Source of the DNA: a virus
DNA: 64,000 nt
Virus record (IMG/VR): IMGVR_UViG_3300030329_003387
Strand: one strand, 5' to 3'
In this document: piece after piece, positions 2,711 through 60,045 of the stretch
How positions within the stretch are numbered: the stretch's first letter is position 1
Layout of the letters: every line of letters begins with the position of its first letter
The notes under the pieces: generated by a model
Database searches by the model: none
What the model saw: the letters and a program-made list of their open reading frames with translations, nothing else
Told to the model about the DNA's origin: nothing
Translations under genes and position numbers: made by a program

Positions 2711-3561
2711 TAGATTATAATAAAAAAAACATTGCAGAACTAAAGCAGATACTGGAAGATCACAACTGTGCGATTCCCAGCGGTGCAAAAAAAGCCGATT
2801 TAGTAAAATTAATTGAGGAAATCATGTCAGAGAATACATTGTTCGACGAAGTCTTTGAAGAGGAATCTTCAGAGCAAGAAGTTCAGGAGCAAAATCTAGC
2901 TCCGGTAATCGGGTCTCCAGAGTGGAACGATTACGTCATGAGTCACTTTCAGTCTAACGAGCTTATAGATGGAAATCCTATTTGCGCTGGTCTTAGACGT
3001 GTTGCTGAGGATTTGTTAGGTGACATTGTAGAGTCTGGGCCGGTTGAGGTTTTTCCTGCTACAGATAGCAATGGGCCGGGAAGAGCTACTGTTGTTTATC
3101 AAGTTATATTCAACTGGGGAAATGCGGGTGTATACAAGACCTTTAAGGAGGTCGCTGATGTATGGCATGGAAATACAGACGACCTGTTCTGTGCGCATCC
3201 TGTAGCTACTGCAAGCACAAGAGCTGAAGGTAGAGCCTTGAGAAAGGCGTTGAAGCTTAGATGCCTAGCGGCAGAAGAGCTTGCTAAAAAAGATATTGTG
3301 GAGATAGTTCAACAGGCTGTTTCCACTCCAGATCAAGATGGTAGAGTTAGTCAACAACAAATTCAATTTATAGACACTAAGTGTAGCCAGCTTGATATAA
3401 ATATGTTAGAATTTATAAACATCGGAGAGAACAAATATAGAAGTATCAATGATGTTGATAAAGATTGTGCTAAGTTGATGATTAAACATCTGAACAATTA
3501 TCAAAACGGCAATACGGAAATTCCAGAATCCATTAAAGGCTATAAGAATTGGAGAAGCTAA
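2707..3561 (+). CDS. Putative single-strand annealing protein (Rad52/Sak/RecT-superfamily-like) with N-terminal HeH/SAP-like module
   Basis: ATASTRAEGRALRKAL helix motif; C-terminal SQQQIQFI helical bundle; N-terminal NIAELKQIL...GAKKADLVKLI. Confidence 0.55.
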   Translation: MIDYNKKNIAELKQILEDHNCAIPSGAKKADLVKLIEEIMSENTLFDEVFEEESSEQEVQEQNLAPVIGSPEWNDYVMSHFQSNELIDGNPICAGLRRVAEDLLGDIVESGPVEVFPATDSNGPGRATVVYQVIFNWGNAGVYKTFKEVADVWHGNTDDLFCAHPVATASTRAEGRALRKALKLRCLAAEELAKKDIVEIVQQAVSTPDQDGRVSQQQIQFIDTKCSQLDINMLEFINIGENKYRSINDVDKDCAKLMIKHLNNYQNGNTEIPESIKGYKNWRS

Positions 3562-3970: not shown

Positions 3971-4681
3971 TTATAGATATTCTAACTCCACGTATAGTCC
4001 ATATAGGGTTTTACTTCCAACGCTGTCTGGAGATGCGGAAATTCCAACATACCAGTCATGTTGTGTGTATTGCCCTGTGTTAGATGAACCATCTCCAGCA
4101 AAAATACCACTAGGGCCGGGAGATTGTGCTAATGGGACGAAAATGCCACTACCACCTACGGTATTAGTACCAGCAGGAAGTCTGCTGCTTGGATTGGGAG
4201 AACCCTGAAACGAGCCTTGAGCATCTGTTCCAGTATGGGTTGAGCCTCCCCACCAAAGTGCATCTCCAGAACCTTCTATACTATAGGAAGAAGATGGATG
4301 TAGAAGTTCGCACGCCCTAGTAATTACACCACTAGCTGGGTGATCTTTATTTGTTCTATCGAATATTCTTAATTTACAGTTTTGCGTTCTAACAGCCGTG
4401 CTATTTGTAAATCTAATATTAGCTGTTGCTTTTTCATTTGGTATGTATCTTAAACCTGTGGCTGGAACTATGCCAGCAGCAAAACCTAGACTGTCTGTTG
4501 AGTATTTTACATTGTTTGCAGCACCACCCTGTACAGTACCATTTCCGTCTGTAATAAAGGTTGTGTCTTGAAATTTGTTGATTTCTACCGATGCACCAAA
4601 AGAACCACCAAAAAACCCTAACCCAGATCCTGACAGGTGATTTACAACTGTGTTACCAGCATAAAAACTTATTGAAGCCAT
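3971..4681 (-). CDS. Putative virion structural protein (G/S/T-rich) with its own late promoter
   Basis: Strong RBS (AGGAGAGAG); TGGTGTATAATA motif upstream; beta-rich composition. Confidence 0.55.
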   Translation of the reverse strand: MASISFYAGNTVVNHLSGSGLGFFGGSFGASVEINKFQDTTFITDGNGTVQGGAANNVKYSTDSLGFAAGIVPATGLRYIPNEKATANIRFTNSTAVRTQNCKLRIFDRTNKDHPASGVITRACELLHPSSSYSIEGSGDALWWGGSTHTGTDAQGSFQGSPNPSSRLPAGTNTVGGSGIFVPLAQSPGPSGIFAGDGSSNTGQYTQHDWYVGISASPDSVGSKTLYGLYVELEYL

Positions 4682-4726: not shown

Positions 4727-5302
4727 TTATTCAAAAAAGCCTTTTGTTTTCTTTTTCTTCCCATATGGGAACAATTTGTTTAATTTACTTTGCCTTTCCT
4801 TGCATCCACAGTCTTTATCCATAGCGTTAAATACTGTATCTACTGCGGCTTTTATTCCAGTAGCTTTAGTTATTTTCGCAACCGTGTCACCCAAACCTCT
4901 AGATTTTTTAGGTATATTGGGGTCTGACATAAAATAGTCTCTTTCGAGTATTTCTTTATCTTTTTCCTCTTTCTCTTTTTCTATTTTTGTGCCTTCCTTC
5001 ATGACATTTTCATACATGCTTTGCATTGGGCCTCTACCCTGCTCCCAAAGATCAAAATAATCTTTTCTCTTCTTGCATAGCTGTACAAGGTCTGGAGTTT
5101 TCCAGCACTTATGCCTATCACAAAATACGCCACTAGAATCTTCTTCTGAACTGCACGCACATGGAGTTAGGCCACCATTTATAACAACTTCTTCTACATG
5201 TGGCAGTTCTCCGTCGTCTCCAAAGAAACCTTTACTCCTGTGAGTAGGAGGTTTACTTCCATGAGAATTTAACCATTTTTTATTACATCCATTACAAGCC
5301 AT
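4727..5302 (-). CDS. Cys-rich small protein with GLGD...DCGC..R..KLN.LFPY motif
   Basis: MACNGC N-terminus; central CxC...C..H.C...C domain; C-terminal SRGLGDTVAKITKATGIK...DCGCKERQSKLNKLFPY. Confidence 0.7.
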   Translation of the reverse strand: MACNGCNKKWLNSHGSKPPTHRSKGFFGDDGELPHVEEVVINGGLTPCACSSEEDSSGVFCDRHKCWKTPDLVQLCKKRKDYFDLWEQGRGPMQSMYENVMKEGTKIEKEKEEKDKEILERDYFMSDPNIPKKSRGLGDTVAKITKATGIKAAVDTVFNAMDKDCGCKERQSKLNKLFPYGKKKKTKGFFE

Positions 5303-5326: not shown

Positions 5327-8300
5327 TCATTCTGGGTATTTTGTTCCAAGTTTAGGATCTGCCGCATTACTAGCACTACCTTCATGCACGTCTACCCTTA
5401 ACAAAGCTTGTGCTGGGAAACCGAACGGTCTATTAACATCCATTATGGCCTCTGTGTAAGGTCCATAACCCCTGTTACACGTTTCTTGATTTATATTTCC
5501 ACAGTCTTCGTCAATAATAGGTAAGTAATGATTACAAACCTCATCATTAAAAGTAAATAACCAATGAAGCATTGTAGGCGTGCTAGATTCACCCTGTTTG
5601 CAATCGTCAAGCGGAACTTCTTGTCCTACCTTTATTCTAAACGAACCACCACTTCTACTCCACTGACATCCAAAATATGGGCCAAAGTTACCATCAGAGT
5701 CTGGCGTTGGAGCTATGTATTGCATTCCTCTGTATAAGTCTTTTGGCGACCCTAAAGTGACGTGATGTCCAAGATATGTTAGTGGAACAGGTTCGTTGGT
5801 TGCAACTAATGATTGATTAACTAAATCTTCTGTTGTTAATATTTCATCTGGCATCACAACCACAAGATCTCTATCAAAATCTTTATCTGATGAACATGTT
5901 GTTACCGCATTACCGTTAGCACCAAAAATTCTTATTTGCTCTTCGCGCACTGACGTTGGTATAGGTCTCCAAGGATTATTTGGGTAGTCAGGATGGCTCT
6001 TACTTTTCTCATTACAAACTTGATATTTTAATGTTTCGTCCCATTCTCTTTCATTGACAGCTGGAGACTTGTGTATTGGAGTTGCTTCGTAATGAATCTT
6101 AATCTCTGTTGGGCTAATAACGCTCACTACATGACCACCCTCGTAAGATGCTTGTGGGCATACACATTGTTCCTCTACAAACTTTCTTTCTTTGGGTGAA
6201 CGGCCGAACGGTGAACTCCCAGCCTTATCACTAACACATAAGTCCTTTCCAAGATTCACTCTAACCCAATCATTTTTTGGATAATCAGCATGGCCTTTGT
6301 CTTTCTCGTAACATGTTTCTGGCTCATCAATACAGTGTACGCAATTTTGACAATCGCAAGTTTCCATAGTGCTTATGAGTTCATCTAACTTACACAAAGG
6401 AGGACAACCCATTTTTAGTCTTTCTGGATCTACAGCGTCAAAGTACCATTCACCACCAAGAACGTCCTCACACATAACTTGATCAACCATTTCCATATCC
6501 ATTCCAGTAGGAAGTGGAGATTCAAACATGCCCAGAGTTGAAGATCCCGGCATTCCTGACGAAGGGTGAAGATAAGGAACGTTTAAACAAGTAGCCTCTG
6601 TATTTTTACCGCCGCTTATTATTATTCTTTCTCCGTCTCGTAAATCATGCTCGGAGTATGTAGTCAGCTTAGTATATAAAAACTTAGGATACCACCAAGC
6701 AGTTTTAACCCAATAATGATCTTTGTCTCCTTCGCAACTGCTAAGGTCGTTGAGAGGACTAGATGCGTCTACTTTTACGTCTGGATCGGTTGGATCTTTC
6801 TTGTTCTTATAACACTGCCCTTGCTCTTCGCAATCTGCTTTATTGTTAAATTCTGGATTAGTGCAAAAAGACTTATTGTAGTCATATACGTTTTCTACAC
6901 TTTTAAAGCTAAGCGACAAGTTCAAGTCATTATGATATATAGGCTTAGGCTTAGTTGTGTCGGGATTACCATCGGCATCTAGTTCGTAATTTGTTTCTAT
7001 CAACGGAATGTCACTAAGGAATACGGCCCTTTTAGGATCTAGTATGTTAGAAAGGGTTGGTGTAAAACCTCTTCGACTTTCCCTAACAAAATTCGGTCCA
7101 AGATGCTCTAAGTGAAGATCGTTAGCTGGACCTCCTTTAGGAATTCTTTGATCGCTTTGTACTCCGACCGGCCACAGTTTATCGCCATAAGGCCACGGAT
7201 CGCTATTTGCAGTGCCATCTGAGTTTATTGGTTGTTCATAACCACCTGCCATTCTGTACAAGTGATCGTTAAGTACATGCGCTCTGCTTTTTAGAACATG
7301 AGGATCTCTGACAAATATTTCCATATAATCTGATTGATCTTCAGGAGATGTTCCATTTTGTAGGTATGTATCACTAAACTTATCTGTATCAACGCCCCAT
7401 CTACCAAAACCATTCGGGATTGATTTTGCTAATTTTGAACTACCCCTTCTAAACATTTGGTAGTCCATTGCAGGATTTTTACTAAGCTTGTCTCTAGTAG
7501 ATCCACCGTAAGTTCCTGTTTCTGCTTCATTTCTATCAGCCATTCCTGTATTTACTACAGTACCTTCTGTCCATCCACAATTATATCTGCTATTTTTTCT
7601 AACTACTAATCTTGCTATATTTCCTTTACCAGTACCTATAGTATTATAGGAATCCACCCAATCCATATGGAAAACTTCAAAGTTTTCAGGCTGTTTTCCT
7701 CCATGATAATTTATCCACTTTCCTTCTGGTATTTGAGAGCCTTGAATTCCATAAGGTCCTCCATGAAGAGTTGAAATATCACTAGCTGTAGCGCATGTTA
7801 CATAGTTGGCTGGATCTTCATAGTGAGACGCGTCAGCAATATTTTTATTAAACTCACAACATTCTGTACATGGTAGTTGTGCATCACAATGCATTGGAGA
7901 ACCAACAACAAAAGGAGTACTCATACAGTCATGAAAATAAGGCACAGGATTCACAGGTTCGTACCAAGTCCTACCTGTTGGCCCTTTAAAGAATGTACCT
8001 AGATTACCCGTTTCACCCTTGAAACTACTTCCAACCCACTCTTGATTGTTTATGTCTGCCTTCTCCGGATTAACACCCGCAGATCCACGTCCACTAAACA
8101 CACCACATTCACTCGCCTCATCAGCTACGACCCATAGGCCAGTACAATCAGGCGTTGCTCCTCCAACAGATGGTTCAGCACACAGCGGATCTAAAATTGC
8201 TGCCTGACATGAATCGAAGGTGTGACCCAACTCGTAACAATATTCAACATGTGTTGACTGAGGATGTTCTATTAAGGTCGGAACTTCTTCACATACGCCA

Positions 8301-11300
8301 TTAGCCTTGTGAGTTTTCGCGTTTGCTCGTTCTCCAGAATGGCACACTTCGCCGCATGGAAAGCTCGCAATGTTTCCGGGATCATTTTCAGGGTCTACCT
8401 CTGCGGGAGGACGAACTGGAAGTTTACAGTAACCATTTACTATCTCTTTACTTCCTTTGTTTGCAGGACCACCCGGCATCCATTCAATATCACATCTTCC
8501 TTTCCAGAAAAATGGATCATACCCATTGACTCCAAGTTTGAATCCTCCTTGACCCCCTTCAGATATTACCCCAGCTCTATCAACTTCCAGAATGCCATCT
8601 CCAATTATAAAACTGTTTGGGCATGGAGGGTTAAAGCTATCCATTGCACTTAATTTATTGCAATCTGGATAATGACAATGAGTGACTTCTAAAAACATTG
8701 CGAGCTGATTGTTTCTATAATTGTCTCCGCCTTTTAGGGTGTCTCTACCAGTGTATTGTTGGAATGCTCCTCCACAACCCATTCTAAGTCTCATTAAATG
8801 AGCGTCTTTAACAGGTGTTGGCACTGGAGGCTCTTTGTATTGTGTCCAACCAAGAGTAGCGCAACCTCCACAATTCATATCCATCGTAAAGCCAGTGCTT
8901 GCCCATCCGGGTTTGTAATTTTTGGCTTTAACCCAAGTTCCTCCGCACTGTTGACAAGATCCGGCATCACCTGACTCACAACCCCATCTCGCATCAGCAC
9001 AATGATGAGTTAAGCATTTGTCTGGTTGAAAATAATGCTCGCACGACATACCACCAACAAAATGATTATAAGAAGGGCCTGAGTTTAACGTCTTTGTTTT
9101 TGGACTATCCCCCATCATGACTTCCCAGTCAGAAATCCAATGAGATCCATTGTATTCCATTTTTACTGTTTTTGTCCCCATTCCATGACAGCCATCTTTG
9201 TAGTCTTTTTTACCACCAACGTTTTTTGGGCCATCTAGAGGAACAAAATCATAACAGTGACTTGTTGGCATAGCATAAGTGTTTCTTTCTCCACAACCTT
9301 TATTGCCAGTTCTTGGGTTTACTACTGCTGCATTATTAGTCCATGTTTCGTTTTGTGCATCCCAGTTTCCTTTAGACTCTATCGGGCATCCTACTGGAAT
9401 CGAGGGCTTTATAGTTTCGCTTTCGCATTTCATCGGTCTTCCGTTTGGAAAACCAAAGCAAGGAATGTCTCCGTTTACATCTCCACATTCACAGCTAGCA
9501 AGGTCTAAATTAAACTGACAAGGAGAAAGATCGCCGGATATACAGTCTTGCTCATCTTTTGATCCACCATTTCCATTGGCGTCTTTTGACGCTTCAAAGC
9601 AGTACTTACCGGAATTATTAAAAGTACCTGTACAAGTTCCGGGAATGGTTGTGTCCGGTATTGGGTCTGTCCAAGTGCAACCAGTCGCAATATTAGTACC
9701 CGTAGCACCACCCTCACACAGAACTTTCATTTGCGCGTCAGTAAGCGCTCTTGATGAACCAAGAGAATTTAACCCTTCACAAGTACTCGCTCCGGGAACT
9801 AATTCACATTTACCAGAAGTGACAGTCTTGCAACTTAAATTACCTATAGTGTTATCACAGCCATTTGGAGCATTGTCCATAACTTGTTTAGATGTGGGAT
9901 ACTGCAAAGCGTTCACATCTTGAACACCGGAGTCAGGTCCCGGATCACAATCACAATCACAGCAAAAATCACCACTTTTATCTGCGTGTTTATATACTTG
10001 GTCTGGCCATCTAGGGTCATCAAACCTAATAGCATTTCCACAATCAAAACATTTCTGATGCCAAGAACCATGACCGCCTAACGGTGCTATATAAGTACCA
10101 CAGTCACAACAATACCTACCGCCTACAGGCAATCCCCAATAGTTTAGAACCGAGTCGTGCATCTTACCCGTACACTTATTTATGCCGCAAGGTACTGTAG
10201 TTTCTAATTTTCCCTTTTGAAGCTCTCTTTCTAATAGGCCATCATCTACACATCTATCTCTCCAGTCCTCACCCGGTTCTAAACCTTGCATACCTTCTTT
10301 TACAGTGGTGCTATCTTTCCAATCACCCACCGTAGTGCCTCCAGCAGATCTTTCCTTGCAAACATCTTTAGCGGGGTTGTGTAGAGTGGTAGCTATTTCT
10401 CCACTAAGCATGTAATCTTCAATTTCTGTACTTCCACCAGCGTCTCTATCTCCAGTGATGGTAGCGAAAAGTGTGTTAGGTAGAAAATGGTCGCAGCAAA
10501 CAGGGCATGTTTCCTCTTGATCTAACCAAACATAGAAGTTTTCAGCTTTGCTTGAATCTTTCGGGAATATATCTGTCCAGCCAGTTCTATATTTTGGAGC
10601 GTTGGGATCTCCTTCAAATGTATAGGGAGTAGCTGCGGTGGCTAATCTCCACGAACCAGTAAACGGACAGGCTGTGTAAACGCTAACTCCGTCGCCAGCG
10701 CCACTTGCTCCTTGATAAGACTTGAATGACTTTACAGTTATCCACTCCAATGGTCTCCAGCAATCATCACCGCAAGGATGATTATCATTAGAGTTTTGTT
10801 TAGGTACATATACTGGATCTTTGCCTTTATCAGTAGGAGCTTCAACTCTTTTGTAATTATTCTTTAAACTATTACATTCATGCTTTGTCATGACAGACCA
10901 TACAGGATCGTATGGAGGATCTACTATTTCACAATTACCATATTCTATGCAATCGGTTTCGCCTGCTTTTTCTCTTAAAATACTGTCCGTGGTATGTAAG
11001 TCTACTGGTGGGTCTAATTTCACTAACTTTGGATTGACAAGATCCTCAGTTACTGTGACTTGCGCCGTGGGAACCTCTACAGGAGAAGCAAATACAGAAG
11101 CACACATTCTTATGCCTTCTTCCTCGCATTGCGGTTCATGCAAGTTTTCTTCTACCTGTCCATCTAATGGTTCTCCGTCACATGTATACAAAGCAAAGTT
11201 ATGTTCATCTACCTTCTTAACAACAAAGAAGTCAGCAGGAGGAGGGTCTTCACCTTTGACTATAACGCCAGAGCAGTACTCATTATTTGGTCCGTATAAA

Positions 11301-14300
11301 AAAGGTCCGTTACAAGGACAAACCACGTCTGGCCAATACGGATCTTGACAATTATCTCCCTTGCATTGTTTCGATGCTTTTTCTTCCCATTGAACCGCTT
11401 GCCATTCTTCGACAGTGAAAACATTTGCTGCAAAATTTCCTTTCACATCAAACGATTGAATCATATCGCCGTCTTCTAAACCATGACGCTTGCTCGTAAC
11501 AATCACAGGTCTAGTATTGCTAGCCATTTCAATGTCTTTAGTTCCGCCTTGACCTTTACAAGCGTCAACTACATAGCTTGACCTAGCCGCATCTGGATAT
11601 AGACCAGTTCTTCCCCAATAATCTAAATTTTCGCCAACACCCTTTTTGCTTGGCTGTACTATTCTAGGGTCAAGGATAATATCCTTAACCTCTTGTTTCA
11701 TAGGGAATACATCACCTACAGCAAAAGCCTCCGGAGTGTCCCATTTTGGACTAAAGTAGTCTCCATTTTCGTCCCATCCGTCAGTTCTCTTATTCCAATC
11801 ATCATATATGTTCCAAGTGGCAATGCCGGGAATTCCACCCATAGCACCGCAGTCAATCCTACCTAAAACATTATTTCCATGCCTTGTTCTTATTACTCCA
11901 CCACCAGTTCCTCCACCACCCCAGCTTCCACCAACTTCCATACACCATTCAAAAGAAACAACTCTGGTGTCGCTACATCCGTCAAATTGTAAAGCTGAGC
12001 ATTCTGTGTAGCACTGTTCTAGCTTAGAATCAGACTGACCCATTAAGCCTTTACAATTGCCATTATTATCTCTTTCGCAATCACAAGTTGGGCCTGAGAC
12101 CATCTCGCATTCATACTCGATAAACCTCGTGCCTGTTGTGCCGTCAGCTTTTGTAAACTGTTCTTTTGCCACTCGGTCTGTGATAGTAGATGGACAAGAT
12201 CCGGGATTGTCTGGGTCGCTATAATAAACCTGACCGTCACAGACACAGACCTCCTCTTCAAAGTCATAATGACCATAGCCTTGTGAGGCATTAGCAGAGT
12301 GCATTTGATTAAATACACATTTTCCGGGATCTTTTTTATTCTCTAGCCCTCTTGTGTACGCCTGAAGTTTTTCTCCAATTTCAGAACAAACTTTATTCTT
12401 GTCTTGAGGACCGTTAGCAAAACCAACAAAGTCATGTTCAAACCAATAAGCTAAACCAGTCCATGCACAATGACTTCCGAAGTTTTGATTTATACATCCG
12501 TTAAATAAATTACGATCAGATTTTGCTTGCGCTAAGCTCTTATAAAAGTTTTGCTTTCTTTCGGTAGCTTTAAATGGTTGGTATTGAAGATTTAACTTTC
12601 TTAGAGCAAAGTCTCCGGGAGGATGATAAGACCTTGCGTTGTGAGGTTCCATGCCTATTTGATTTTCCCAGTACAAAGCTTGTGCGCATGGACCATGATC
12701 ATAGTCTGCCCCTTTACCAGCCCAGTGTATACCCGGATTTGTATGCTTTACACTTAACTCATAAGCATCTCTTCCTCCCGTGGCCCAATCCGCTTGACCG
12801 TCATCATTAAAATCCCAACGGTAACACCAATCAAGATGTTTTCCACCAATGGAATAAGAACCATCTTCATTTTCAGTTTGAGAAGAGCCTTCTTGTGGAT
12901 CTCCGGGATAAAATCCAGCAGGATTTCCCCACCAGCCATACTGTTCTCTCCAGCCGCCACGCTGGTCATTACTACCCGGAAATGGAGATAGCTGTGTTAG
13001 CCTAAGATTGGAGCAGTTCATTATCTGATCCATCGGTATATAGAGTACCGTGACTTCTCCAGTTCCAGTTCCGGGATTTATTGTATTTCCATAAGCATCT
13101 GTTTCGGGGTCAAAACAGTTTCCATAATAGCCACATTCTTTAATAACAAGAGTAAAACCACTATTAGCTATGTCTGCATACGCAGCTTCGTCACCTCTCT
13201 GAAATGAACTGAATGATGGTCCGGCTCCCATTGTGTCACCCATATTAACAATACTACCGCTTTCTATTCCCGGTATTAGAGTGACTGTCTTTTCGCCATC
13301 TACGCATGTGTTTTGTCTAGAGCCTTTTATATCGTCGAAACCCTTAGCCATTTCTGGAATCCACGCAGGACTAGTATCACTAATACCTTCACCTGCACAT
13401 AAATGTCTTCCTTCAACTGGATGCATCAGTTGTGCATACCCATCTGTGCTTGATAGAAAAGTAAGAGCATCATATTCAGAAGTGCTTAACTCTCTCCATT
13501 CCTGACTCCAGTAATTTCTAGCTAGCTTATCTCCTCCATACTTATACTTGACATCTTTAAATGGATCAGTATCATCAGGTTCAGGCAATAGGCCAAGTTT
13601 TATGCACTCCCATTTATTTTCTACTAAATCATGCTCTCCCGGATCTTCTCCTTCACCAAGCGGAGTACCGTCCGCTTTGACAAGTAGTATAGTTCCGTCT
13701 TCAAGCTTAGTTCTACAGGTAGCTCTTTCAAAACATTCCTCCTGATCTAGAAATCTTTCAGCTCTATATAAAAGTCTTCCTGCCTGTTGACAATTGTGAG
13801 CGTGCTGCTGATCGCCTCCATAAGATTCATTATGTATTGTTATGAACTTTCTTCCTTCTCCGCCGCTCGCAGGAACATCCTGACCTTCCGAATAGCAAAC
13901 TTGCCAATCTGTTGTTGCAAACTCAATCTTAGTTTCTTCCCCAATACCAACATCCTTCACACACATTGAGGGTACAGGAAATCTCTCTCCATTCGGCAAA
14001 GGAGCTACCTCTTCATTTTTTTTCGAGAGGTCGTAAATGTAGTCTTTATAGTGTTTTATAAATGGGTTTGGCTTGTTCGTCGTGAGACCTAAATAATCTG
14101 GAAACTCACTAAAAGGATTTCTATCTGAGGACCAATTATGATCTTCTAGATTAATTATTTCTCCCATTAAGAAAATATTTTCAAGATGCTGCCTTTCTAT
14201 CGGTAGCTGTCCTTGATACGGATTGTCATTGTAGTACCAATCAACTAAGTTAGGACGAAAGGATCTCTCTCTGTCGAAGTTTGAAATTGAGCTTGTGGGC

Positions 14301-14929
14301 GGAAAGGGAACGCCGTGCTGATCGTAGAATGGTCTGCCGGTTTCGCCTACAGGACTTCGATCATGCGTAGTAAATGTATCTAAACCGATATTGCCCTCTT
14401 TACCAAAATATCTACCGGCGATTCTGTTCTGGGTTTCTAAAAAAGGATCTGGCGTACTACGGTGAGGTGGTTTTGAGCAATGAGAACGACCGCGCCAAGC
14501 ACCTTTATGATATCTAAGAACAAACTCTTCGGTTGCACCTCCAGCTCTAGCCAGTTCTCTGCTAGTTTTATTCCAAGTCGCACTAGTTTCCCATTCGCCC
14601 TCTAATGTTTCACAATCACTTTTGTTATTTGCTTCTTTACCTAAACATGTTCCATTGTTAGCTTCACAGTCTTCAGGAGTTTTGTCATTAGTTTTTCCGT
14701 TTGATGCGTCTACACAAAATGGATCTACTTTTGCAATGCCAATTTTGATTTCGTTTGGCAGCATACAGTTTCCTTCAGCGCCGTAAAAGACAGACTTACA
14801 GCCACATCCAATATTGCATGGATGTCCACCGTTATTGTCTTGTCCCGGACGGGTATGGCCGGATTTTCTACCAGTTCGGTAGTTTGTCAGCCCTTCAGCT
14901 GATGTATCAAAATTGTCCCCTAGTCCCAT
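5327..14929 (-). CDS. Giant (3200 aa) Cys-rich putative tail-tip/adhesin protein with two FCCH-like beta-barrel domains
   Basis: About 140 Cys by hand count; ASNTRPVIVTSKRHGLEDGD and TTYSEHDLRDGERIIISG motifs; last large gene of the tail module. Confidence 0.7.
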   Translation of the reverse strand: MGLGDNFDTSAEGLTNYRTGRKSGHTRPGQDNNGGHPCNIGCGCKSVFYGAEGNCMLPNEIKIGIAKVDPFCVDASNGKTNDKTPEDCEANNGTCLGKEANNKSDCETLEGEWETSATWNKTSRELARAGGATEEFVLRYHKGAWRGRSHCSKPPHRSTPDPFLETQNRIAGRYFGKEGNIGLDTFTTHDRSPVGETGRPFYDQHGVPFPPTSSISNFDRERSFRPNLVDWYYNDNPYQGQLPIERQHLENIFLMGEIINLEDHNWSSDRNPFSEFPDYLGLTTNKPNPFIKHYKDYIYDLSKKNEEVAPLPNGERFPVPSMCVKDVGIGEETKIEFATTDWQVCYSEGQDVPASGGEGRKFITIHNESYGGDQQHAHNCQQAGRLLYRAERFLDQEECFERATCRTKLEDGTILLVKADGTPLGEGEDPGEHDLVENKWECIKLGLLPEPDDTDPFKDVKYKYGGDKLARNYWSQEWRELSTSEYDALTFLSSTDGYAQLMHPVEGRHLCAGEGISDTSPAWIPEMAKGFDDIKGSRQNTCVDGEKTVTLIPGIESGSIVNMGDTMGAGPSFSSFQRGDEAAYADIANSGFTLVIKECGYYGNCFDPETDAYGNTINPGTGTGEVTVLYIPMDQIMNCSNLRLTQLSPFPGSNDQRGGWREQYGWWGNPAGFYPGDPQEGSSQTENEDGSYSIGGKHLDWCYRWDFNDDGQADWATGGRDAYELSVKHTNPGIHWAGKGADYDHGPCAQALYWENQIGMEPHNARSYHPPGDFALRKLNLQYQPFKATERKQNFYKSLAQAKSDRNLFNGCINQNFGSHCAWTGLAYWFEHDFVGFANGPQDKNKVCSEIGEKLQAYTRGLENKKDPGKCVFNQMHSANASQGYGHYDFEEEVCVCDGQVYYSDPDNPGSCPSTITDRVAKEQFTKADGTTGTRFIEYECEMVSGPTCDCERDNNGNCKGLMGQSDSKLEQCYTECSALQFDGCSDTRVVSFEWCMEVGGSWGGGGTGGGVIRTRHGNNVLGRIDCGAMGGIPGIATWNIYDDWNKRTDGWDENGDYFSPKWDTPEAFAVGDVFPMKQEVKDIILDPRIVQPSKKGVGENLDYWGRTGLYPDAARSSYVVDACKGQGGTKDIEMASNTRPVIVTSKRHGLEDGDMIQSFDVKGNFAANVFTVEEWQAVQWEEKASKQCKGDNCQDPYWPDVVCPCNGPFLYGPNNEYCSGVIVKGEDPPPADFFVVKKVDEHNFALYTCDGEPLDGQVEENLHEPQCEEEGIRMCASVFASPVEVPTAQVTVTEDLVNPKLVKLDPPVDLHTTDSILREKAGETDCIEYGNCEIVDPPYDPVWSVMTKHECNSLKNNYKRVEAPTDKGKDPVYVPKQNSNDNHPCGDDCWRPLEWITVKSFKSYQGASGAGDGVSVYTACPFTGSWRLATAATPYTFEGDPNAPKYRTGWTDIFPKDSSKAENFYVWLDQEETCPVCCDHFLPNTLFATITGDRDAGGSTEIEDYMLSGEIATTLHNPAKDVCKERSAGGTTVGDWKDSTTVKEGMQGLEPGEDWRDRCVDDGLLERELQKGKLETTVPCGINKCTGKMHDSVLNYWGLPVGGRYCCDCGTYIAPLGGHGSWHQKCFDCGNAIRFDDPRWPDQVYKHADKSGDFCCDCDCDPGPDSGVQDVNALQYPTSKQVMDNAPNGCDNTIGNLSCKTVTSGKCELVPGASTCEGLNSLGSSRALTDAQMKVLCEGGATGTNIATGCTWTDPIPDTTIPGTCTGTFNNSGKYCFEASKDANGNGGSKDEQDCISGDLSPCQFNLDLASCECGDVNGDIPCFGFPNGRPMKCESETIKPSIPVGCPIESKGNWDAQNETWTNNAAVVNPRTGNKGCGERNTYAMPTSHCYDFVPLDGPKNVGGKKDYKDGCHGMGTKTVKMEYNGSHWISDWEVMMGDSPKTKTLNSGPSYNHFVGGMSCEHYFQPDKCLTHHCADARWGCESGDAGSCQQCGGTWVKAKNYKPGWASTGFTMDMNCGGCATLGWTQYKEPPVPTPVKDAHLMRLRMGCGGAFQQYTGRDTLKGGDNYRNNQLAMFLEVTHCHYPDCNKLSAMDSFNPPCPNSFIIGDGILEVDRAGVISEGGQGGFKLGVNGYDPFFWKGRCDIEWMPGGPANKGSKEIVNGYCKLPVRPPAEVDPENDPGNIASFPCGEVCHSGERANAKTHKANGVCEEVPTLIEHPQSTHVEYCYELGHTFDSCQAAILDPLCAEPSVGGATPDCTGLWVVADEASECGVFSGRGSAGVNPEKADINNQEWVGSSFKGETGNLGTFFKGPTGRTWYEPVNPVPYFHDCMSTPFVVGSPMHCDAQLPCTECCEFNKNIADASHYEDPANYVTCATASDISTLHGGPYGIQGSQIPEGKWINYHGGKQPENFEVFHMDWVDSYNTIGTGKGNIARLVVRKNSRYNCGWTEGTVVNTGMADRNEAETGTYGGSTRDKLSKNPAMDYQMFRRGSSKLAKSIPNGFGRWGVDTDKFSDTYLQNGTSPEDQSDYMEIFVRDPHVLKSRAHVLNDHLYRMAGGYEQPINSDGTANSDPWPYGDKLWPVGVQSDQRIPKGGPANDLHLEHLGPNFVRESRRGFTPTLSNILDPKRAVFLSDIPLIETNYELDADGNPDTTKPKPIYHNDLNLSLSFKSVENVYDYNKSFCTNPEFNNKADCEEQGQCYKNKKDPTDPDVKVDASSPLNDLSSCEGDKDHYWVKTAWWYPKFLYTKLTTYSEHDLRDGERIIISGGKNTEATCLNVPYLHPSSGMPGSSTLGMFESPLPTGMDMEMVDQVMCEDVLGGEWYFDAVDPERLKMGCPPLCKLDELISTMETCDCQNCVHCIDEPETCYEKDKGHADYPKNDWVRVNLGKDLCVSDKAGSSPFGRSPKERKFVEEQCVCPQASYEGGHVVSVISPTEIKIHYEATPIHKSPAVNEREWDETLKYQVCNEKSKSHPDYPNNPWRPIPTSVREEQIRIFGANGNAVTTCSSDKDFDRDLVVVMPDEILTTEDLVNQSLVATNEPVPLTYLGHHVTLGSPKDLYRGMQYIAPTPDSDGNFGPYFGCQWSRSGGSFRIKVGQEVPLDDCKQGESSTPTMLHWLFTFNDEVCNHYLPIIDEDCGNINQETCNRGYGPYTEAIMDVNRPFGFPAQALLRVDVHEGSASNAADPKLGTKYPE

Positions 14930-14937: not shown

Positions 14938-16803
14938 TTACCCCAATGAGGATGCTGGATAGTTATCATCCGGCCCACAATCTTTAGTAGTTGTCATTCC
15001 CTGCACCATAACTTTTCTAGTACAAGCACCGTACTCGCCAGCTTCACAATGGGCGTTAGTTACCATTTCTACACCCATAAACTCACCCTGTAAGATAACA
15101 TGAACAGGAATGCTTTCACTAACTCGTATAGCTTGCCCTCCAGCCCCGCATCCAGCACCATCTTTTGATCTCATATATGACACGGTGACTCTTCTACCAG
15201 TATCATAACTAAGAAACGAGTCTCCTAGCATAAGACCTTGGTTTAATGGGTTTTCAATTATAATTCTTTGATATAACACCGACAAAGCTCTGTGACTGTA
15301 TTCCTCATCAGCTTCATTTACACCTTCAAGCTTGTCTTGTAAATATTCAAATTTGCCATCATAGCTAGAACCCCACCCATGACAAGGAGTACCAATTCTT
15401 CTAGAAAATGGATCTGAAGCCATAGTTTTACTAAACTTATCACCACAATCAGACCTAACATTTCTACCAGAAACAACATGACCCATAGATCTTAGTATAA
15501 TTGCATCATAAAATGGAACACAAGCTGTAGTAGGATCTTCACAAGATACATATGGTCCGGCTGGCCCCTTTTTTACTTGGCACTTACCGCACCACTGAGA
15601 GTCTTCAGGGTCGTATATTTCTATGTCTGGGTAATATTTACTTTTTGGAAAATAAGTATCATACTTACATTGTTTAGAAGGGCATGGGTTTCTATACACT
15701 CTACCTCCACCAGTAGTATTTCCTACACCAAAGTTCCAACTATTTCTTCCGTCTTCACCAGCTGTTGGTAATATACATCTAGCAGCTTTAGATAGATAAA
15801 CTTTATTTTCTCCCGGAGCAGTCCAGACTTTTCTGTCGGTATCCCACCTTAAATCCACAGGACCAGTCTTCCATTTGTCTATCCTTGATAAGTGACCTGA
15901 AAGAAAGTGCTTCTGAGGTTTGTCTTCTTCAAGATAGTCTGGAAGCCCCGTTGGTTTTCCATAGTCTTTTGATTTTGCTGAGGTATTTTTAAATTCCGCG
16001 TCAAATTTTTTGTTAGGGACAGGGTTTGATTCTAGGTCATACCCCCAACCAGTTATGACAAGAGGTCCTCTTAAAGACATAGGTCTCGCTGCACCTTGTG
16101 GTCGTGTATTTATTTTACCGAGTGCAGGCTCATCTTCTCCATGACCACCTTCATCAGCCCTAACATCTACATTTCCGGGCTGAGAACCTCTATTGACTAC
16201 TGCTATATGATGACCTTTAGCAAAAGGATTCAAGGTAGCTGAAGTAACAACACCAGAGCCGACATGCCACCATTCTATTAATCTTGAGGGCTTTTCGTAG
16301 GGAGGCAGTCTGTTTTGATTAATACCCGGCCTTCCCGTTCCTCCTTGTGGATCTGCATACTCAGCCCCTTGACCTTCAGGTTTTCTTTCAACAAAAGTTG
16401 TAGACATTGGAAGTAATAAACCATCACTACTCATGGCAGATGTAGATTGATGCTTTAGTTTATCTACAGTCCCTCCACCTCTTGGATCATCTAACCCTTG
16501 AGCTTGGTTAGTTGTGTACTGAGATTTGTCAACCATTGCAACACTAGGAGCTGACGTGTCTTCTGTATAACCGTCTGGGTTGTTTGCGTCAGTAGGAATA
16601 ACTTCTATTCCATCTTCATTTTTTTGAGTTATCGGTTCTCTATTGGGTTCTCCAAGAGAACCTTTAAATATGCCAGCACCATAACGAGGCTGTCTTGGTT
16701 GATTTGAACCAGCCCTTTGTTCACGTCTAGTAGACTTAGACTGCTCTCTAGTCTGCTTACGCTCTTCTCTTCTTTGTCTTAATTTATCTCCGAAATTTCC
16801 CAT
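14938..16803 (-). CDS. Putative tail-tip protein, low-complexity N-terminus and Cys-rich C-terminal half
   Basis: Tail module position; RBS AGGAGAG; LRGPLVITGWGYD and WKTGPVDLRWD conserved-looking segments. Confidence 0.5.
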   Translation of the reverse strand: MGNFGDKLRQRREERKQTREQSKSTRREQRAGSNQPRQPRYGAGIFKGSLGEPNREPITQKNEDGIEVIPTDANNPDGYTEDTSAPSVAMVDKSQYTTNQAQGLDDPRGGGTVDKLKHQSTSAMSSDGLLLPMSTTFVERKPEGQGAEYADPQGGTGRPGINQNRLPPYEKPSRLIEWWHVGSGVVTSATLNPFAKGHHIAVVNRGSQPGNVDVRADEGGHGEDEPALGKINTRPQGAARPMSLRGPLVITGWGYDLESNPVPNKKFDAEFKNTSAKSKDYGKPTGLPDYLEEDKPQKHFLSGHLSRIDKWKTGPVDLRWDTDRKVWTAPGENKVYLSKAARCILPTAGEDGRNSWNFGVGNTTGGGRVYRNPCPSKQCKYDTYFPKSKYYPDIEIYDPEDSQWCGKCQVKKGPAGPYVSCEDPTTACVPFYDAIILRSMGHVVSGRNVRSDCGDKFSKTMASDPFSRRIGTPCHGWGSSYDGKFEYLQDKLEGVNEADEEYSHRALSVLYQRIIIENPLNQGLMLGDSFLSYDTGRRVTVSYMRSKDGAGCGAGGQAIRVSESIPVHVILQGEFMGVEMVTNAHCEAGEYGACTRKVMVQGMTTTKDCGPDDNYPASSLG

Positions 16804-16816
16804 TTTTCTCTCCTAA

Positions 16817-19800
16817 CTATATAGGCTGAAACCCGTTAGCGAGATCGTGAGCTAGTTGAATGAAGTCTTCAGCGCCTTGACGCATTCTATTCTCATATAT
16901 CTCGTTAAGTTTATGGGCTTTTCTTTGTGTTTTCATTGTGTAGGTTGTAGTAACGCCATTATCACCAATATTTATACTAACATCTGTTACATATGGACCT
17001 GTGTCTAATAGTTGAAGACCCATGATTGTAGGTTTATTTGTGTCTAAAGTGCTTGGAAGTCCAGCTAAAGTAACAGTACCACTTTCATTTGCTACACCAT
17101 TAGTAGCGCCAGCAGGCTCTACAGCCGCTTGAAGTTTAGCAGTTGCCGCTAACTCCATATTATCAAATCCTCCAAAATTTTCTGGAGCAAAAGTATTATC
17201 AATTTCTAACCTTGCTTTACCAAAACCTCTACCTTCTGCCCAAGGACCCCATCTATACCTATTGCTTTTCATAGGAACTCCAACAGTCCAAGGCTTAAAC
17301 ATAGCTGCGGCTAAACTAAATCTTCCACTACCCTCTTTATCATTGTCACCAATATAGTTGAATGTGTTGAATGCGGCTCTAGGATGGTTAGCATCTCCGT
17401 GGAACAAAGTCCTCCCGTCATCAACGCGCCAAAGAGGAATAGCTGCCAATGTTGCATATCTGTTTATTTGACCGTCAGCACTAATAAAGCTATTCAACGC
17501 ACCTACGTTTCTTCTCCAGAATGAATTAGCAGGAACCCCATTTAATCCACCGCCATAAGTGGGAACCATAGCTTGAACCATATCGGTATCGTTATAAACA
17601 GCGGGACTTGCTATCTCTATCATAGCATATGGCTTCACAGTTCCACTCGTCGCTCTTCCTGTTTGTATTGCGTATGTTGTAGGATTCCACAACCAATATA
17701 CCTGTTCGTCTACCATAGCTTTTGAATAAACTTTGCCAATACTGTCGCCGCCCATAGAATTTGCAGGCATCAAATTGGTAACGTGATACTGAGTAGGATC
17801 TAACTCTATAGGAAATCCACCATTAGGAAAGTAGATACTTGACATATTTTTACTTATGACTTGTTTGTGCATGTTAGGATAAACAGCAAAAGGCATAAGC
17901 TTTCCAGACTGATCAAAGAAGCTTATATTTTGTGGGTATCTTTTTGCAAGCTCTGGAGTTGTTATATCAATATCAACCCAGCCAGACTGAGATGGCTCCC
18001 AAGAAGATTCAAATTGATAAACTTCATCGCTTATTTGTCTTAGATGTTGGCCTACTTCGTTAGGGGTAAATGGAAGAGGGACTAAATATTTTCTGCCGTA
18101 AAATTCATTAGCTACTTTAGCTACTCTTTGGTAAACTTCAGAAAGCGTCGATTCTACGGTCGCTCCTTGAACTTTTGTTCCAGCCCCAGTTCCTGTGTCT
18201 ATTTCCACCTCCTGCATTCTTCCGTCACCACCAGCGTTTGCATCCGTAGCAACGCCTGTGTGCTGAACCCCTAGCCATCTATTAAAGCTATGTACACTAG
18301 AACCTCCCATAACAGTTATTGGTTTTGTGTATTTGATATCGCCGTTTTCATCTTTTTTGCAAGAACCAACCCCTTCTCCAGCTGGTATCGTGCCAGCTTG
18401 AGAATCTTCTATTGTATAAGTTTCACAAGTAATAGAGCTATGTACACTCCCACTTAAATCAAAAGCATTAGCAGCAGCTGTTGTTGTCCCCATTTGCATA
18501 GGACATGTAGATGCTCCCATATTACAGTGCAGCCAAGGTTCAAATATTATAGTATACTCCCTCCAAGACTCCTCCCCTTCAATAGCAGCTCTTAGTGCGG
18601 TAACCGTTGTATAATAAAAATGACTATAATCTCCATTATTAGTTACCGGACCACCTCTCCATCCAGTACCAGCTAGGTTAATTGGTATTACATTTACTGG
18701 AGGTATATGCCAGTCCCAACTAACAAGCCTCCCCTTATTGCCGTCTGGGTTTTTACAGTAAGTACCAATTAAATTGCCGCCCTTCATTTGGGGTCTTAGC
18801 ATATAAGGATTTTCTAGACAGTGATTACTAATTTCATTGTTAAAACAACAGTCTTCATTGATAAAAACACTAGATCTATTGTCAAACTTTTGATTTAGTA
18901 ATTTATATCTATATGTCGGACCTGCCTGTCCGTGAGAGTAACACCAGCTATGATATGGATTTTTACAAACAGGAAGTTTTGCTTCATATCCAGTTGGATT
19001 TTTTACAACCATTGAAGTACTGCTTCCAATGACAGGCATAGTTCTTCCTGATACAGGAAGGTTCACTGTACTGTAAGGATTATAATATTCAAATATTGTG
19101 AATATACCCTCATTAGTATCGAAGTCATTGTATGGGTTGTCATCAGCAAAACCGCCCATAATAGGAATACCTTCAGCTCTTTGCTGCAATAAAGCAATAG
19201 AGGCAAACGGTCCTTTTAGTTTATCAACACCCTTTAAGAAGCCCCAACAAGGGAAAATGTCTAATAAGCCGTCACCCCAAGTTCCTGTAGGCATAAATGG
19301 AGCTTTAGTTCCTGCTGGAAGAGGGCCAGCTAAGTTAGCTAATCCAGCAGCAGTATTCATGTTAGGAACTAAGGATTTTCCATAAGCGATATAATCGTCA
19401 TTAGATGCTGGAGAAGGACTTGCGGGTACATTACTTATAGCACCAAGAACGCCACCAGAAGCTTGATCATAGCTATGACCTCTTACGTATGGAAAATTAT
19501 GAGGGTTATACCATCCGGGATTGCCATAAGTTACTCCGTCATGCTCCATACTTGGGAGAAATTCCTGAAGTTTCTCAGAACCAGCAGTAAATCTTTCACG
19601 TATCATGCCCGCATTTATGCGCGTAAACCAGCCAATATCACTGACACCCACAACTCTAGTTCTCTCAGCGCCTAACATCATTATTCCGGAAAGAGGGTCC
19701 TTGTATTCATAACCCATACTTTCAGACACAATTCTGTTAGTCCAAGGATGACTTGTTCCTGTTGCTCCACAAACTTCGTCATCATGAGCTGTGTCTATAG

Positions 19801-21016: not shown

Positions 21017-21019
21017 ATT

Positions 21020-23035: not shown

Positions 23036-23043
23036 TTTTTCAC

Positions 23044-55623: not shown

Positions 55624-55642
55624 TCCACAAAAGCTCCTAAAA

Positions 55643-60015: not shown

Positions 60016-60045
60016 TATTCTATTCTCCATTTAAGGGTTAAATTA

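What the first reader, a model, noticed from the sequence alone, without database searches (positions are those of the whole stretch)
5327..14929. 3200-aa tail protein with about 140 cysteines and no signal peptide
Seen: ~4% Cys, including CC, CxC, CCDCDC and CxxC clusters. A recurring C-xn-[DE/S]C-x3-6-[G]xW module appears (NKSDCETLEGEW, WCMEVGGSW, SCQQCGGTW, MCEDVLGGEW, SSCEGDKDHYW). Established: tailed phages assemble in a reducing cytoplasm and their fibres are generally Cys-poor. Inference: a disulfide-stapled, eukaryote-extracellular-like adhesin or a poly-metal-binding fibre, needing either a dedicated oxidation route or oxidation after lysis.
Basis: partly seen in the sequence, partly recalled or inferred. 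Interest (0 to 1): 0.75.

Follow-up and report, generated by a model that had tools for sequence, protein, structure and literature searches.

The report
Giant cysteine-rich phage tail-tip protein
A 3200-residue protein at the tail-tip end of an uncultured marine phage has 139 cysteines that are by far its best-conserved residues and are gained and lost in pairs, so it is most likely a disulfide-stapled host-contact structure, which is unusual for a phage and has no annotated relative.

Summary
ORF 5327-14929(-) encodes 3200 aa with 139 Cys (4.34%, against 0.80% in the window's other ORFs; P~1e-55) and has no signal peptide or membrane segment.

It is a real, conserved gene. It has full-length orthologues (24-94% identity) in ocean-metagenome phage contigs of about 136-162 kb, always five genes downstream of the tape measure gene. 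It is the most diverged gene of the virion module: 40-47% identity where the capsid protein is 98%.

Cys is the best-kept residue, 98% against 47.5% overall at ~43% identity and 85% against 29% at ~26%. Variable Cys change in neighbouring pairs (9 observed, 2.1 expected, p=0.002). CxxC is not enriched and His is poorly conserved. This favours structural disulfides over many zinc sites, apart from a few knuckle-like clusters.

No Erv/Alr or DsbA gene was found in a 90%-complete relative. Its one thioredoxin-fold gene (WCPHC) lies near a ribonucleotide reductase gene.

Two AlphaFold runs failed (pLDDT ~40), so pairing is not shown structurally. Two orthologues carry a Peptidase_M23 insertion.

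Two other first-reader notes of this scan cover the same stretch.

Verdict: new, unannotated family; disulfide reading partly supported; oxidation route unresolved.

The parts
5327..14929 (-). Giant Cys-rich ORF (3200 aa, 139 Cys), protein P0001
   Evidence: Orthologues. The start is confirmed by the conserved N-terminus MG[LI]GDNFDTS in the orthologues.
14750..14929 (-). Residues 1-60: family-wide conserved N-terminal head with the GHPCNxGCGC four-Cys cluster (C38, C42, C44, C55)
   Evidence: C38, C42 and C44 are kept in 100% of 8 distant giants, C55 in 75%. The N-termini are listed.
12425..13162 (-). Residues 590-835: the most conserved block, Cys-poor (up to 78% identity per 40-residue bin), containing IPMDQIMNCSNL and NLQxQPFKATExKQN
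11144..11551 (-). Residues 1127-1262: small beta-barrel (HGLEDGD motif) interrupted by a Cys-rich insertion (C1189-C1219). Orthologues P0016 and P0021 carry a Peptidase_M23 insertion just after it.
   Evidence: VIA-align Z 10.2 to E1 FCCH 4p22_B over 75 aa, Z 8.4 to phage FCWL1 9jlf_E (low-confidence model). M23. Motif.
7790..10252 (-). Residues 1560-2380: the Cys-densest core (5-11 Cys per 100 aa)
10040..10111 (-). Residues 1607-1630: CCDC-x16-CFDC, the best candidate for a zinc-ribbon-like site
   Evidence: Read from the sequence. C1610, C1627 and C1630 are kept in 88-100% of distant giants. Metal binding is not tested.
6866..7576 (-). Residues 2452-2688: conserved Cys-free block
6560..6712 (-). 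Residues 2740-2790: a second site with the barrel-like motif (HDLRDGERIIISG)
   Evidence: Weak barrel matches (Z at most 5.5).
5810..6289 (-). Residues 2881-3040: hypervariable, indel-rich region (5-29% identity per bin); candidate specificity determinant
5330..5809 (-). Residues 3041-3200: C-terminal domain conserved across the family (WSRxGGxF..VG...CN)
4727..5302 (-). Syntenic 191-aa partner gene (9 Cys, 4.7%) with a conserved C-terminus: GLGD...TGIK...DCGC.ERQ..LN...KKTKGFFE
   Evidence: PHROG 32048, unknown function.
3971..4681 (-). Syntenic 236-aa Gly/Ser-rich protein, last gene of the module (90% identical in relatives)
14938..25521 (-). Four upstream distal-tail genes: 621 aa, 1399 aa, 671 aa and 825 aa (the last with Laminin_G_3)
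   Evidence: The 671-aa and 1399-aa genes appear to be replaced by one ~2000-aa gene in L017 and L019.
25533..38597 (-). Tape measure protein, 4354 aa, zero Cys
   Evidence: PHROG tape-measure families, E values down to 3.7e-27. 0 Cys, P = 6e-16.

Best explanation
The ORF encodes the giant distal-tail (tail-tip or central-fibre) protein of an uncultured marine tailed phage with a genome of about 150 kb. It is the founding example here of an unannotated family of 2500-3800-residue proteins. The protein appears to be built from small beta-barrels and other domains into which many short Cys-containing modules are inserted; the commonest module is C-x11-12-C-E-x2-GG-x-W. Most of its 139 Cys are structural and form mainly local disulfide pairs that staple an exposed extracellular structure. 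A few knuckle-like clusters may bind zinc instead. The protein is the phage's fastest-evolving virion component, which suggests that it contacts the host surface. In some relatives the same scaffold carries a peptidoglycan-cutting M23 domain. Because no sulfhydryl oxidase or Dsb-type gene is present in a near-complete relative, the disulfides most likely form without a dedicated enzyme, either late in infection or after lysis in oxic seawater, guided by a fold that already brings the partner Cys close together. What is shown: the gene, the family, Cys conservation, pairwise Cys turnover, gene order and rapid divergence. What is inferred: presence in the virion, disulfide chemistry, and the timing and route of oxidation.
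For: Gene and family:
- Six close orthologues and nine more distant giants of 2256-3827 aa found with an exhaustive profile search.
- All family members have 3.9-6.6% Cys.
- All source names are 'hypothetical protein'.

Position:
- The tape measure gene is confirmed by PHROGs.
- The giant lies five genes downstream on the same strand, in the same order on contigs L001, L005, L006, L008, L017, L018 and L019.

Host-contact role:
- Against relative G001, the capsid protein is 98% identical and most virion genes 72-95%, but the giant is 40-47%.
- It is also the most diverged gene against L005. Against L019 it is among the three most diverged, together with the two tail genes upstream of it.
- P0016 has a Peptidase_M23 insertion (38.9 bits, above the cut-off); P0021 has a weaker one (25.9 bits).

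Structural Cys:
- 131 of 134 aligned Cys are kept at ~43% identity, against 47.5% of residues overall.
- 85% are kept at ~26% identity, against 29% overall; 73 Cys are kept in at least 75% of the distant giants.

Pairs rather than fours:
- In ungapped columns, 9 of 22 variable Cys columns share their lineage pattern with the adjacent Cys column, against 2.1 expected (p=0.002). Most other residue types show no excess (p >= 0.08); Tyr (p=0.02) and Ser (p=0.026) show a small one.
- Examples of co-varying pairs: 812/821, 895/897, 2842/2858, 2860/2922, 1804/1813, 2196/2213.

Against metal sites:
- CxxC occurs 9 times against 6.1 expected.
- His conservation is 0.19-0.40, below average.

Oxidising context:
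- Virion proteins are bimodal. The tape measure protein has 0 Cys in 4354 aa (P=6e-16), and the capsid protein and ten other virion ORFs in the window also have 0.

Oxidation genes:
- G001 has no Erv/Alr and no DsbA.

Precedent:
- Disulfides hold the tail fibres on the baseplate of cyanophage Pam3, and DTT releases them (PMC9942802).
Against: - There is no structural evidence. AlphaFold2 on residues 521-1720 and 2321-3200 gave mean pLDDT 41.6 and 39.8, and no coordinates were returned, so Cys-Cys distances could not be measured.
- The Cys count is odd in the window protein (139) and in about half of the complete family members. Not every Cys can therefore be in an intramolecular disulfide.
- Many variable Cys columns have no adjacent co-varying partner.
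- There is no homology to any known tail-tip protein (Dit, Tal, gpJ); Pfam, PHROGs and PDB sequence searches were all empty.
- There is no proteomic evidence that the protein is in virions.
- The oxidation-gene search was run on a relative that is 90% complete, not on the window's own genome.
- Some relatives come from Tara mesopelagic samples whose oxygen level I could not check.
Confidence: 0.5

Rival explanations
1. The Cys mostly bind metal. On this reading the protein is a chain of zinc (or iron) knuckles that fold in the reducing cytoplasm and need no oxidation.
For: A few clusters look like knuckles or ribbons: CCDC-x16-CFDC at 1607-1630, CCDCDC at 1656, CPVCC at 1475, CTECC at 2354, and HPCNxGCGC at 38-44. 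Metal sites would solve the problem of folding in a reducing cytoplasm. The odd Cys totals are not expected for a protein in which every Cys is in a disulfide.
Against: CxxC, CxC and CC are not enriched over shuffles. His is among the least conserved residues. Cys are gained and lost in twos, not fours. Cys-Cys spacings are broad, from 1 to more than 60 residues. The commonest module has only two Cys.
Confidence: 0.12
2. The disulfides are made inside the infected cell by phage-encoded factors. The candidates are the conserved cytoplasmic WCPHC thioredoxin-fold protein and the 191-aa CxxC/CGC protein encoded directly after the giant gene. This would be a phage counterpart of the cytoplasmic disulfide pathway of poxviruses and giant viruses.
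For: G001 encodes a 99-aa thioredoxin-fold protein with no signal peptide and a DsbA-type WCPHC motif. The motif is kept in 27 of 31 complete family clusters. A word match places a likely homologue in the window's own genome. The 191-aa gene is always adjacent to the giant, has 4.7% Cys and has an invariant DCGC.
Against: There is no Erv/Alr flavin oxidase to pass electrons to oxygen, and no DsbA or DsbB-type partner was found. Four family members have CPFC or CPYC, which are glutaredoxin-type motifs. The gene lies about 5 kb from a ribonucleotide reductase large-subunit gene, which is the usual client of phage thioredoxins and glutaredoxins. The N-terminal Cys of the 191-aa protein are missing in L019, and the protein has no oxidoreductase family match.
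Confidence: 0.2
3. The protein is not an external tail component. It could be an internal or ejected virion protein, or a non-structural protein that merely sits at the end of the tail operon.
For: There is no homology to any tail protein family and no virion proteomics. Giant ejected proteins exist in other phages (my own knowledge, e.g. the N4 virion RNA polymerase).
Against: The gene has a conserved position between distal-tail genes and the end of the module. It is the fastest-diverging gene, as is typical of receptor-binding parts. Two orthologues have an M23 insertion. Proteins that must pass through the tail tube, such as the tape measure protein here, have no Cys at all, and a protein locked by disulfides could hardly be threaded through.
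Confidence: 0.08

Closest known systems
Central tail fibre or tail-tip proteins of siphophages (lambda gpJ, T5 pb3/pb4)
   Same: A large protein encoded downstream of the tape measure gene, rapidly diverging, presumed to decide host contact. A small barrel in the model aligns weakly with lambda gpJ (8iyk_J, Z 4.9).
   Different: No sequence or family match. It is about three times longer. It has 4.3% Cys, whereas those proteins are Cys-poor (my own knowledge).
Disulfide-linked baseplate and tail fibres of cyanophage Pam3 (PMC9942802)
   Same: An aquatic phage whose tail carries real disulfides, shown by cryo-EM and mass spectrometry, which are needed for integrity; DTT releases the fibres.
   Different: Pam3 has about a dozen bonds, mostly between subunits, in small proteins of a myophage. 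Here there are 139 Cys in one chain, mostly with local intrachain partners, and no homology.
Tail-associated lysins with a Peptidase_M23 domain (e.g. Tal of lactococcal phages; my own knowledge)
   Same: Orthologue P0016 carries an M23 match above the Pfam cut-off inside the same scaffold; P0021 has a weaker one, below the cut-off.
   Different: The window's protein and G001 have no M23 domain.
Cytoplasmic disulfide pathway of poxviruses, giant viruses and baculoviruses (Erv-family sulfhydryl oxidases; e.g. PMC3509050)
   Same: The same problem: a virus that assembles in a reducing cytoplasm yet has disulfide-rich virion proteins.
   Different: No Erv/Alr gene in the 90%-complete relative.
E1 ubiquitin-activating enzyme FCCH beta-barrel (PF16190)
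   Same: Best fold match of the one confidently modelled domain: 4p22_B, Z 10.2, rmsd 2.7 Å over 75 aa, 19% identity. The Atlas lists a cluster of phage proteins in which 11% of members carry E1_FCCH as a look-alike of the neighbouring 1399-aa protein.
   Different: It is only a small generic barrel. There is no Pfam hit even at E <= 1, the model's overall pLDDT is 41.6, and no functional link is implied.

Membership tests
Distal tail / tail-tip protein of tailed phages | Encoded in the tail operon downstream of the tape measure gene, on the same strand | tested here: met
   The tape measure gene is confirmed. The order is conserved on eight contigs.
Distal tail / tail-tip protein of tailed phages | Homology to a known tail-tip family (Dit, Tal, gpJ, baseplate hub) | tested here: inconclusive
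   No hit in Pfam, PHROGs, PDB sequences or GenBank phages. The fold search was run on poor models only.
Distal tail / tail-tip protein of tailed phages | Physically present at the tail tip of virions | not testable with these tools
   Uncultured phage; no proteomics or imaging.
Disulfide-rich extracellular protein | Cys are the most conserved residues | tested here: met
   98% against 47.5%; 85% against 29%.
Disulfide-rich extracellular protein | Cys are gained and lost in pairs | tested here: met
   9 observed against 2.1 expected adjacent same-pattern columns, p=0.002. Most other residue types show no excess (p >= 0.08); Tyr (p=0.02) and Ser (p=0.026) show a small one.
Disulfide-rich extracellular protein | Even number of Cys | tested here: not met
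   139 in the window protein; about half of the complete family members have odd totals.
Disulfide-rich extracellular protein | Secretion signal, or another route to an oxidising compartment | tested here: not met
   No signal peptide or membrane segment. Release by lysis is the presumed route.
Disulfide-rich extracellular protein | Cys sulfurs within bonding distance in a structure | tested here: inconclusive
   pLDDT 41.6 and 39.8, and no coordinates returned.
Zinc-finger / zinc-ribbon arrays | Excess of CxxC (or CxxH) knuckle pairs | tested here: not met
   9 CxxC against 6.1 expected; 80 of 500 shuffles reach this count.
Zinc-finger / zinc-ribbon arrays | Conserved His or Cys ligands in groups of four | tested here: inconclusive
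   His conservation is 0.19-0.40. Three to five local clusters could still be sites.
Peptidase_M23 tail lysin | Match to PF01551 above the cut-off | tested here: not met
   None in P0001 or G001. Present in orthologue P0016 (38.9 bits); below the cut-off in P0021 (25.9 bits).
Virus-encoded cytoplasmic disulfide pathway | Erv/Alr sulfhydryl oxidase or DsbA encoded by the phage | tested here: not met
   No match in G001, which is 90% complete. The window's own genome outside the window could not be searched.

The most novel reading that the evidence does not exclude
The tail tip of a whole clade of ocean phages is a megadalton-scale extracellular structure held together by some 60 disulfides per chain, formed without any oxidoreductase. 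These bonds would act as a redox trigger: the structure is stable in oxic seawater, and reduction on contact with the host envelope or periplasm unlocks it to start penetration and DNA ejection. The adjacent 27-kb glycosylation island may decorate the same structure.
Probability: 0.12. Interest if true: 0.85.

Novelty: new variant of a known kind. Interest (0 to 1): 0.6.

Why it matters
Phage receptor-binding structures are normally thought of as Cys-poor proteins that fold in a reducing cytoplasm. This family has 116-187 Cys per chain (3.9-6.6% of residues), and more than 70 Cys positions are held fixed across ~26% sequence identity. If these are disulfides, they raise two questions that can be tested directly: how dozens of correct pairs form without an oxidase, and whether redox state controls infectivity, as the DTT experiments on cyanophage Pam3 suggest. 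The family also marks a clade of 136-162-kb ocean phages with no cultured relative; the capsid protein is only 24.5% identical to that of Bacillus phage G. Its hypervariable segments are natural candidates for host-range determinants. Neither AlphaFold2 nor family libraries recognise more than one small barrel, so most of the 3200 residues have no recognised fold.

Tried and rejected
- Family and database searches on the giant found nothing: Pfam at E<=1, PHROGs, a PDB sequence profile (only a chance 0.074 hit), tblastn against 50,697 GenBank phages, megablast of 24 kb of the window, and GTDB genome contigs.
- IMG/VR gave one relative.
- AlphaFold2 with family alignments failed. Residues 521-1720 gave pLDDT 41.6 and residues 2321-3200 gave 39.8.
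- The fold search of the second model gave nothing above background (best Z 5.5).
- The ESM Atlas gave no usable hit for residues 2380-2700 and only weak leads for the 1399-aa neighbour.
- PDB sequence searches of the 1399-aa and 671-aa neighbours found nothing.
- A whole-chain Cys parity rule was considered and rejected, because totals are odd in about half of the members.
- A 4Fe-4S reading of CQNCVHC (2860-2866) was rejected, because C2860 is not conserved.
- The WCPHC thioredoxin as a dedicated oxidase was downgraded after a ribonucleotide reductase gene was found nearby and CPYC/CPFC variants turned up.
- The window's own whole genome is not held.
- One related-loci run failed because the alignment was too diverse.
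Full report
**1. The observation**

The minus-strand ORF 5327-14929 is open for 3200 codons. It contains 139 Cys, or 4.34%. The other 39 main ORFs of the window hold 141 Cys in 17,579 residues (0.80%), so the enrichment has a binomial P of about 1e-55.

The quoted strings are all present, at residues 102, 995, 1991, 2819, 2730 and 1656. There is no signal peptide or membrane segment: the highest 19-residue hydropathy mean is 1.07.

Two refinements are needed.
- CC, CxC and CxxC counts (4, 10, 9) are no higher than in shuffles of the same composition (6.2, 5.9, 6.1).
- The recurring module is real. A generalised C-[E/Q..]-x2-6-G-x-[C/W] occurs 10 times against 1.0 expected. A broader C..G..W pattern matches 88 times in eleven family members; aligned on the Trp, these give the consensus C-x11-12-C-E-x2-G-G-x-W, with two Cys per module.

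**2. It is a real, conserved gene family**

A word-indexed search found six full-length relatives at 94, 81, 43, 43, 40 and 30% identity.

An exhaustive profile search with residues 1161-2360 (alignment A2) found 28 proteins. Nine are more distant giants of 2256-3827 aa. The complete ones share the N-terminus (MxxGDxxDTS ... GHPCNxGCGC) and the C-terminal domain (WSRHGGxF..VG...CCN).

Every member has 3.9-6.6% Cys. All source names are 'hypothetical protein'. The window's own protein lies on a JGI contig of 151,421 bp, and identical or near-identical copies lie on ENA contigs of 136-138 kb.

Relatives come from Tara Oceans and other metagenomes and from one IMG/VR contig of 136,411 bp (G001, 90% complete). 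No GenBank phage, and no bacterial or archaeal genome in the GTDB set, carries a relative of the giant. The capsid protein's nearest cultured relative is Bacillus phage G, at 24.5% identity.

**3. Genomic setting**

On the minus strand the order is:
- a tail-tube-like gene (41143-42060; weak Phage_tube_2 and minor-tail hits)
- a 4354-aa tape measure protein (several PHROG tape-measure families, E down to 3.7e-27)
- an 825-aa Laminin_G_3 protein
- proteins of 671, 1399 and 621 aa
- the giant
- a 191-aa Cys-rich protein and a 236-aa protein
- then the divergently transcribed sugar-gene island.

This order is kept in close and distant relatives alike. In L017 and L019 the places of the 671-aa and 1399-aa genes are taken by a single gene of about 2000 aa.

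Against G001 the capsid protein is 98% identical and most virion genes 72-95%. The giant is only 40% by BLAST and 47% over the alignment. Against L005 it is again the most diverged gene: 42.7%, with neighbours at 53-90%. Against L019 it is among the three most diverged, together with the 671-aa and 1399-aa genes upstream.

Divergence is patchy. There are hypervariable islands at residues 161-520, 1721-1800, 2121-2320 and 2881-3040, between well-kept blocks at 590-835, 1441-1500, 1601-1680, 1921-1960, 2041-2080, 2441-2480 and 3081-3160.

Orthologue P0016 has a Peptidase_M23 match above the Pfam cut-off (38.9 bits), inserted just after the first barrel. P0021 has a weaker match (25.9 bits). Neither the window protein nor G001 has one.

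Position, rate of change and the lysin insertion together make a distal-tail, host-contacting role the best reading. No known tail-tip family matches, and presence in virions is untested.

**4. What the cysteines are**

*(a) Conservation.*
- Against the two ~43% relatives, 131 of 134 aligned Cys are kept, where 47.5% of all residues are. The next best residue is Trp, at 76%.
- Against eight giants at 24-29% identity, 85% of aligned Cys are kept, where 29% of all residues are. 73 of the 139 positions are Cys in at least 75% of them.

*(b) Pairwise turnover.* I used only ungapped columns of residues 560-3200 in seven sequences. That gives 99 Cys columns, of which 77 are invariant and 22 variable.
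- Nine of the variable columns have the same lineage pattern as the adjacent Cys column, where 2.1 are expected (p=0.002).
- Trp, Gly, Pro, Phe, His, Asp, Asn and Thr show no such excess. Tyr and Ser show a small one.
- Examples by substitution: 812/821 (W and L in one lineage), 895/897, 2842/2858 (T and P), and the non-adjacent 2860/2922 (present only in the window's lineage).
- Examples by indel: 1804/1813, 2196/2213, 1708/1717, 1766/1777.
- There are also paired gains in other lineages.

*(c) Metal-site signatures are weak.* CxxC is not enriched. His conservation is below average, 0.40 and 0.19.

*(d) Context.* Virion proteins here are either Cys-free or Cys-rich.
- The tape measure protein has 0 Cys in 4354 aa (P=6e-16), and the capsid protein and ten other virion ORFs in the window also have none.
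- In G001, 12 of the 19 Cys-free ORFs of at least 90 aa lie in the virion module. The giant and its small downstream partner are the most Cys-rich sizeable proteins.
- This all-or-none pattern is what proteins exposed to oxidising conditions show (my own knowledge).

*Against a pure disulfide picture.*
- The total is odd (139), as it is in about half of the complete family members.
- Many variable Cys have no adjacent partner.
- A few clusters look like zinc knuckles: CCDC-x16-CFDC at 1607-1630, CCDCDC at 1656, and the N-terminal HPCNxGCGC.

I conclude that the Cys are mostly disulfides, possibly with a handful of metal sites.

**5. Structure**

AlphaFold2 with family alignments A3 and A4 gave mean pLDDT 41.6 for residues 521-1720 and 39.8 for residues 2321-3200. 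No coordinates were delivered, so the Cys geometry test could not be done.

The only part matched above background is a small beta-barrel in residues ~1127-1430:
- E1 FCCH domain 4p22_B, Z 10.2, rmsd 2.7 Å, 75 aa
- phage FCWL1 head-to-tail protein 9jlf_E, Z 8.4
- phi92 endosialidase, Z 7.3
- lambda tail tip gpJ, Z 4.9.

The barrel is interrupted by a Cys-rich insertion (C1189-C1219), which is greatly expanded in distant giants. A second HxLxDGE motif lies at residue 2761. The matches of the second model are at background level. This agrees with another first-reader note on the same stretch ('FCCH-like barrels split by Cys-rich insertions'), but it rests on a poor model.

**6. The oxidation route**

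The window's own genome is not held, so I searched G001.
- No Erv/Alr and no DsbA.
- The glutaredoxin model only touches the thioredoxin-like gene.
- There is one 99-aa thioredoxin-fold ORF with WCPHC and no signal peptide.
- Its family of 33 clusters keeps WCPHC in 27 of 31 complete members. Three have WCPFC and one WCPYC, which are glutaredoxin-type motifs.
- A word match places a likely homologue about 44 kb upstream of this window in the same genome.
- The gene lies about 5 kb from a ribonucleotide reductase large-subunit ORF. The simplest role is therefore as that enzyme's reductant.

The 191-aa gene after the giant is always present. Its invariant part is the C-terminal GLGD...TGIK...DCGC.ERQ..LN...KKTKGFFE. 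The N-terminal Cys are missing in L019, and no oxidoreductase family matches it.

So no dedicated pathway is evident. Oxidation late in infection or after lysis is the default, with precedent in the disulfide-bonded tail of cyanophage Pam3 (PMC9942802). Erv-based cytoplasmic pathways are known only from eukaryotic large DNA viruses in the literature I searched.

**7. Verdict**

The protein defines an unannotated family of giant, Cys-rich distal-tail proteins in a clade of uncultured ocean phages. I class it as a new variant of a known kind (a phage tail-tip or fibre protein with structural disulfides). It is notable for the scale and conservation of its Cys framework and for having no recognisable fold. 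Interest: 0.6.

Noticed in passing
window 25533-38597 (-): The 4354-aa tape measure protein has no cysteine at all (P=6e-16 at the window's background rate). The capsid protein and ten other virion ORFs in the window are also Cys-free, so virion proteins are sharply bimodal in Cys content.
   Followed up: partly
window 4727-5302 (-): The 191-aa protein that always follows the giant has an invariant C-terminus (KSRGLGDTVAK.TKATGIK...DCGC.ERQ..LN...KKTKGFFE). It shares the GLGD and CGC elements with the giant's own N-terminus (MGLGD...GCGC). 'KGFF[EG]' recurs at its C-terminus, near its N-terminus, and in the N-termini or linkers of relatives. It may be a docking or processing motif.
   Followed up: partly
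L007:5663-7322 (relative of the giant, contig ctg338990): In the most distant close relative, the first ~560 residues of the giant are encoded by two separate, overlapping ORFs (346 and 214 aa) ahead of a 2547-aa ORF. This is either a real split or frameshift errors in that assembly.
   Followed up: partly
P0016 residues 1619-1664; P0021 residues 1423-1468: Two distant orthologues carry a Peptidase_M23 (peptidoglycan endopeptidase) insertion just after the first barrel. The window's protein has only a short variable stretch there (about residues 1262-1320).
   Followed up: yes
L004:1492-1791 (-) = G001:119910-120191: A 99-aa cytoplasmic thioredoxin-fold protein with a DsbA-type WCPHC motif, conserved in 27 of 31 related clusters. 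It lies about 5 kb from a ribonucleotide reductase large-subunit ORF. Word matches suggest a homologue about 44 kb upstream of this window in the same genome.
   Followed up: partly
L017:1526-7429 and L019:1826-8164: In distant relatives a single gene of 1967-2112 aa takes the place of the window's 671-aa and 1399-aa distal-tail genes (21020-23035 and 16817-21016).
   Followed up: no
window 59008-60030 (-): The major capsid protein is 98% identical to that of IMG/VR contig G001. Its nearest cultured relative is Bacillus phage G at only 24.5% identity, so the clade has no cultured representative.
   Followed up: yes
window 46730-49003 (-) and 53554-55677 (-): A 757-aa protein with strong tail-fibre PHROG hits and a 707-aa tailspike-like protein lie between the head genes and the tail tube gene, far from the distal-tail module. 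The phage may therefore carry a second, conventional, Cys-poor set of fibres.
   Followed up: no
window 14938-16803 (-): The 621-aa protein just upstream of the giant has all 13 of its Cys in the C-terminal half (residues 343-609). Cys enrichment therefore extends to neighbouring distal-tail proteins.
   Followed up: no
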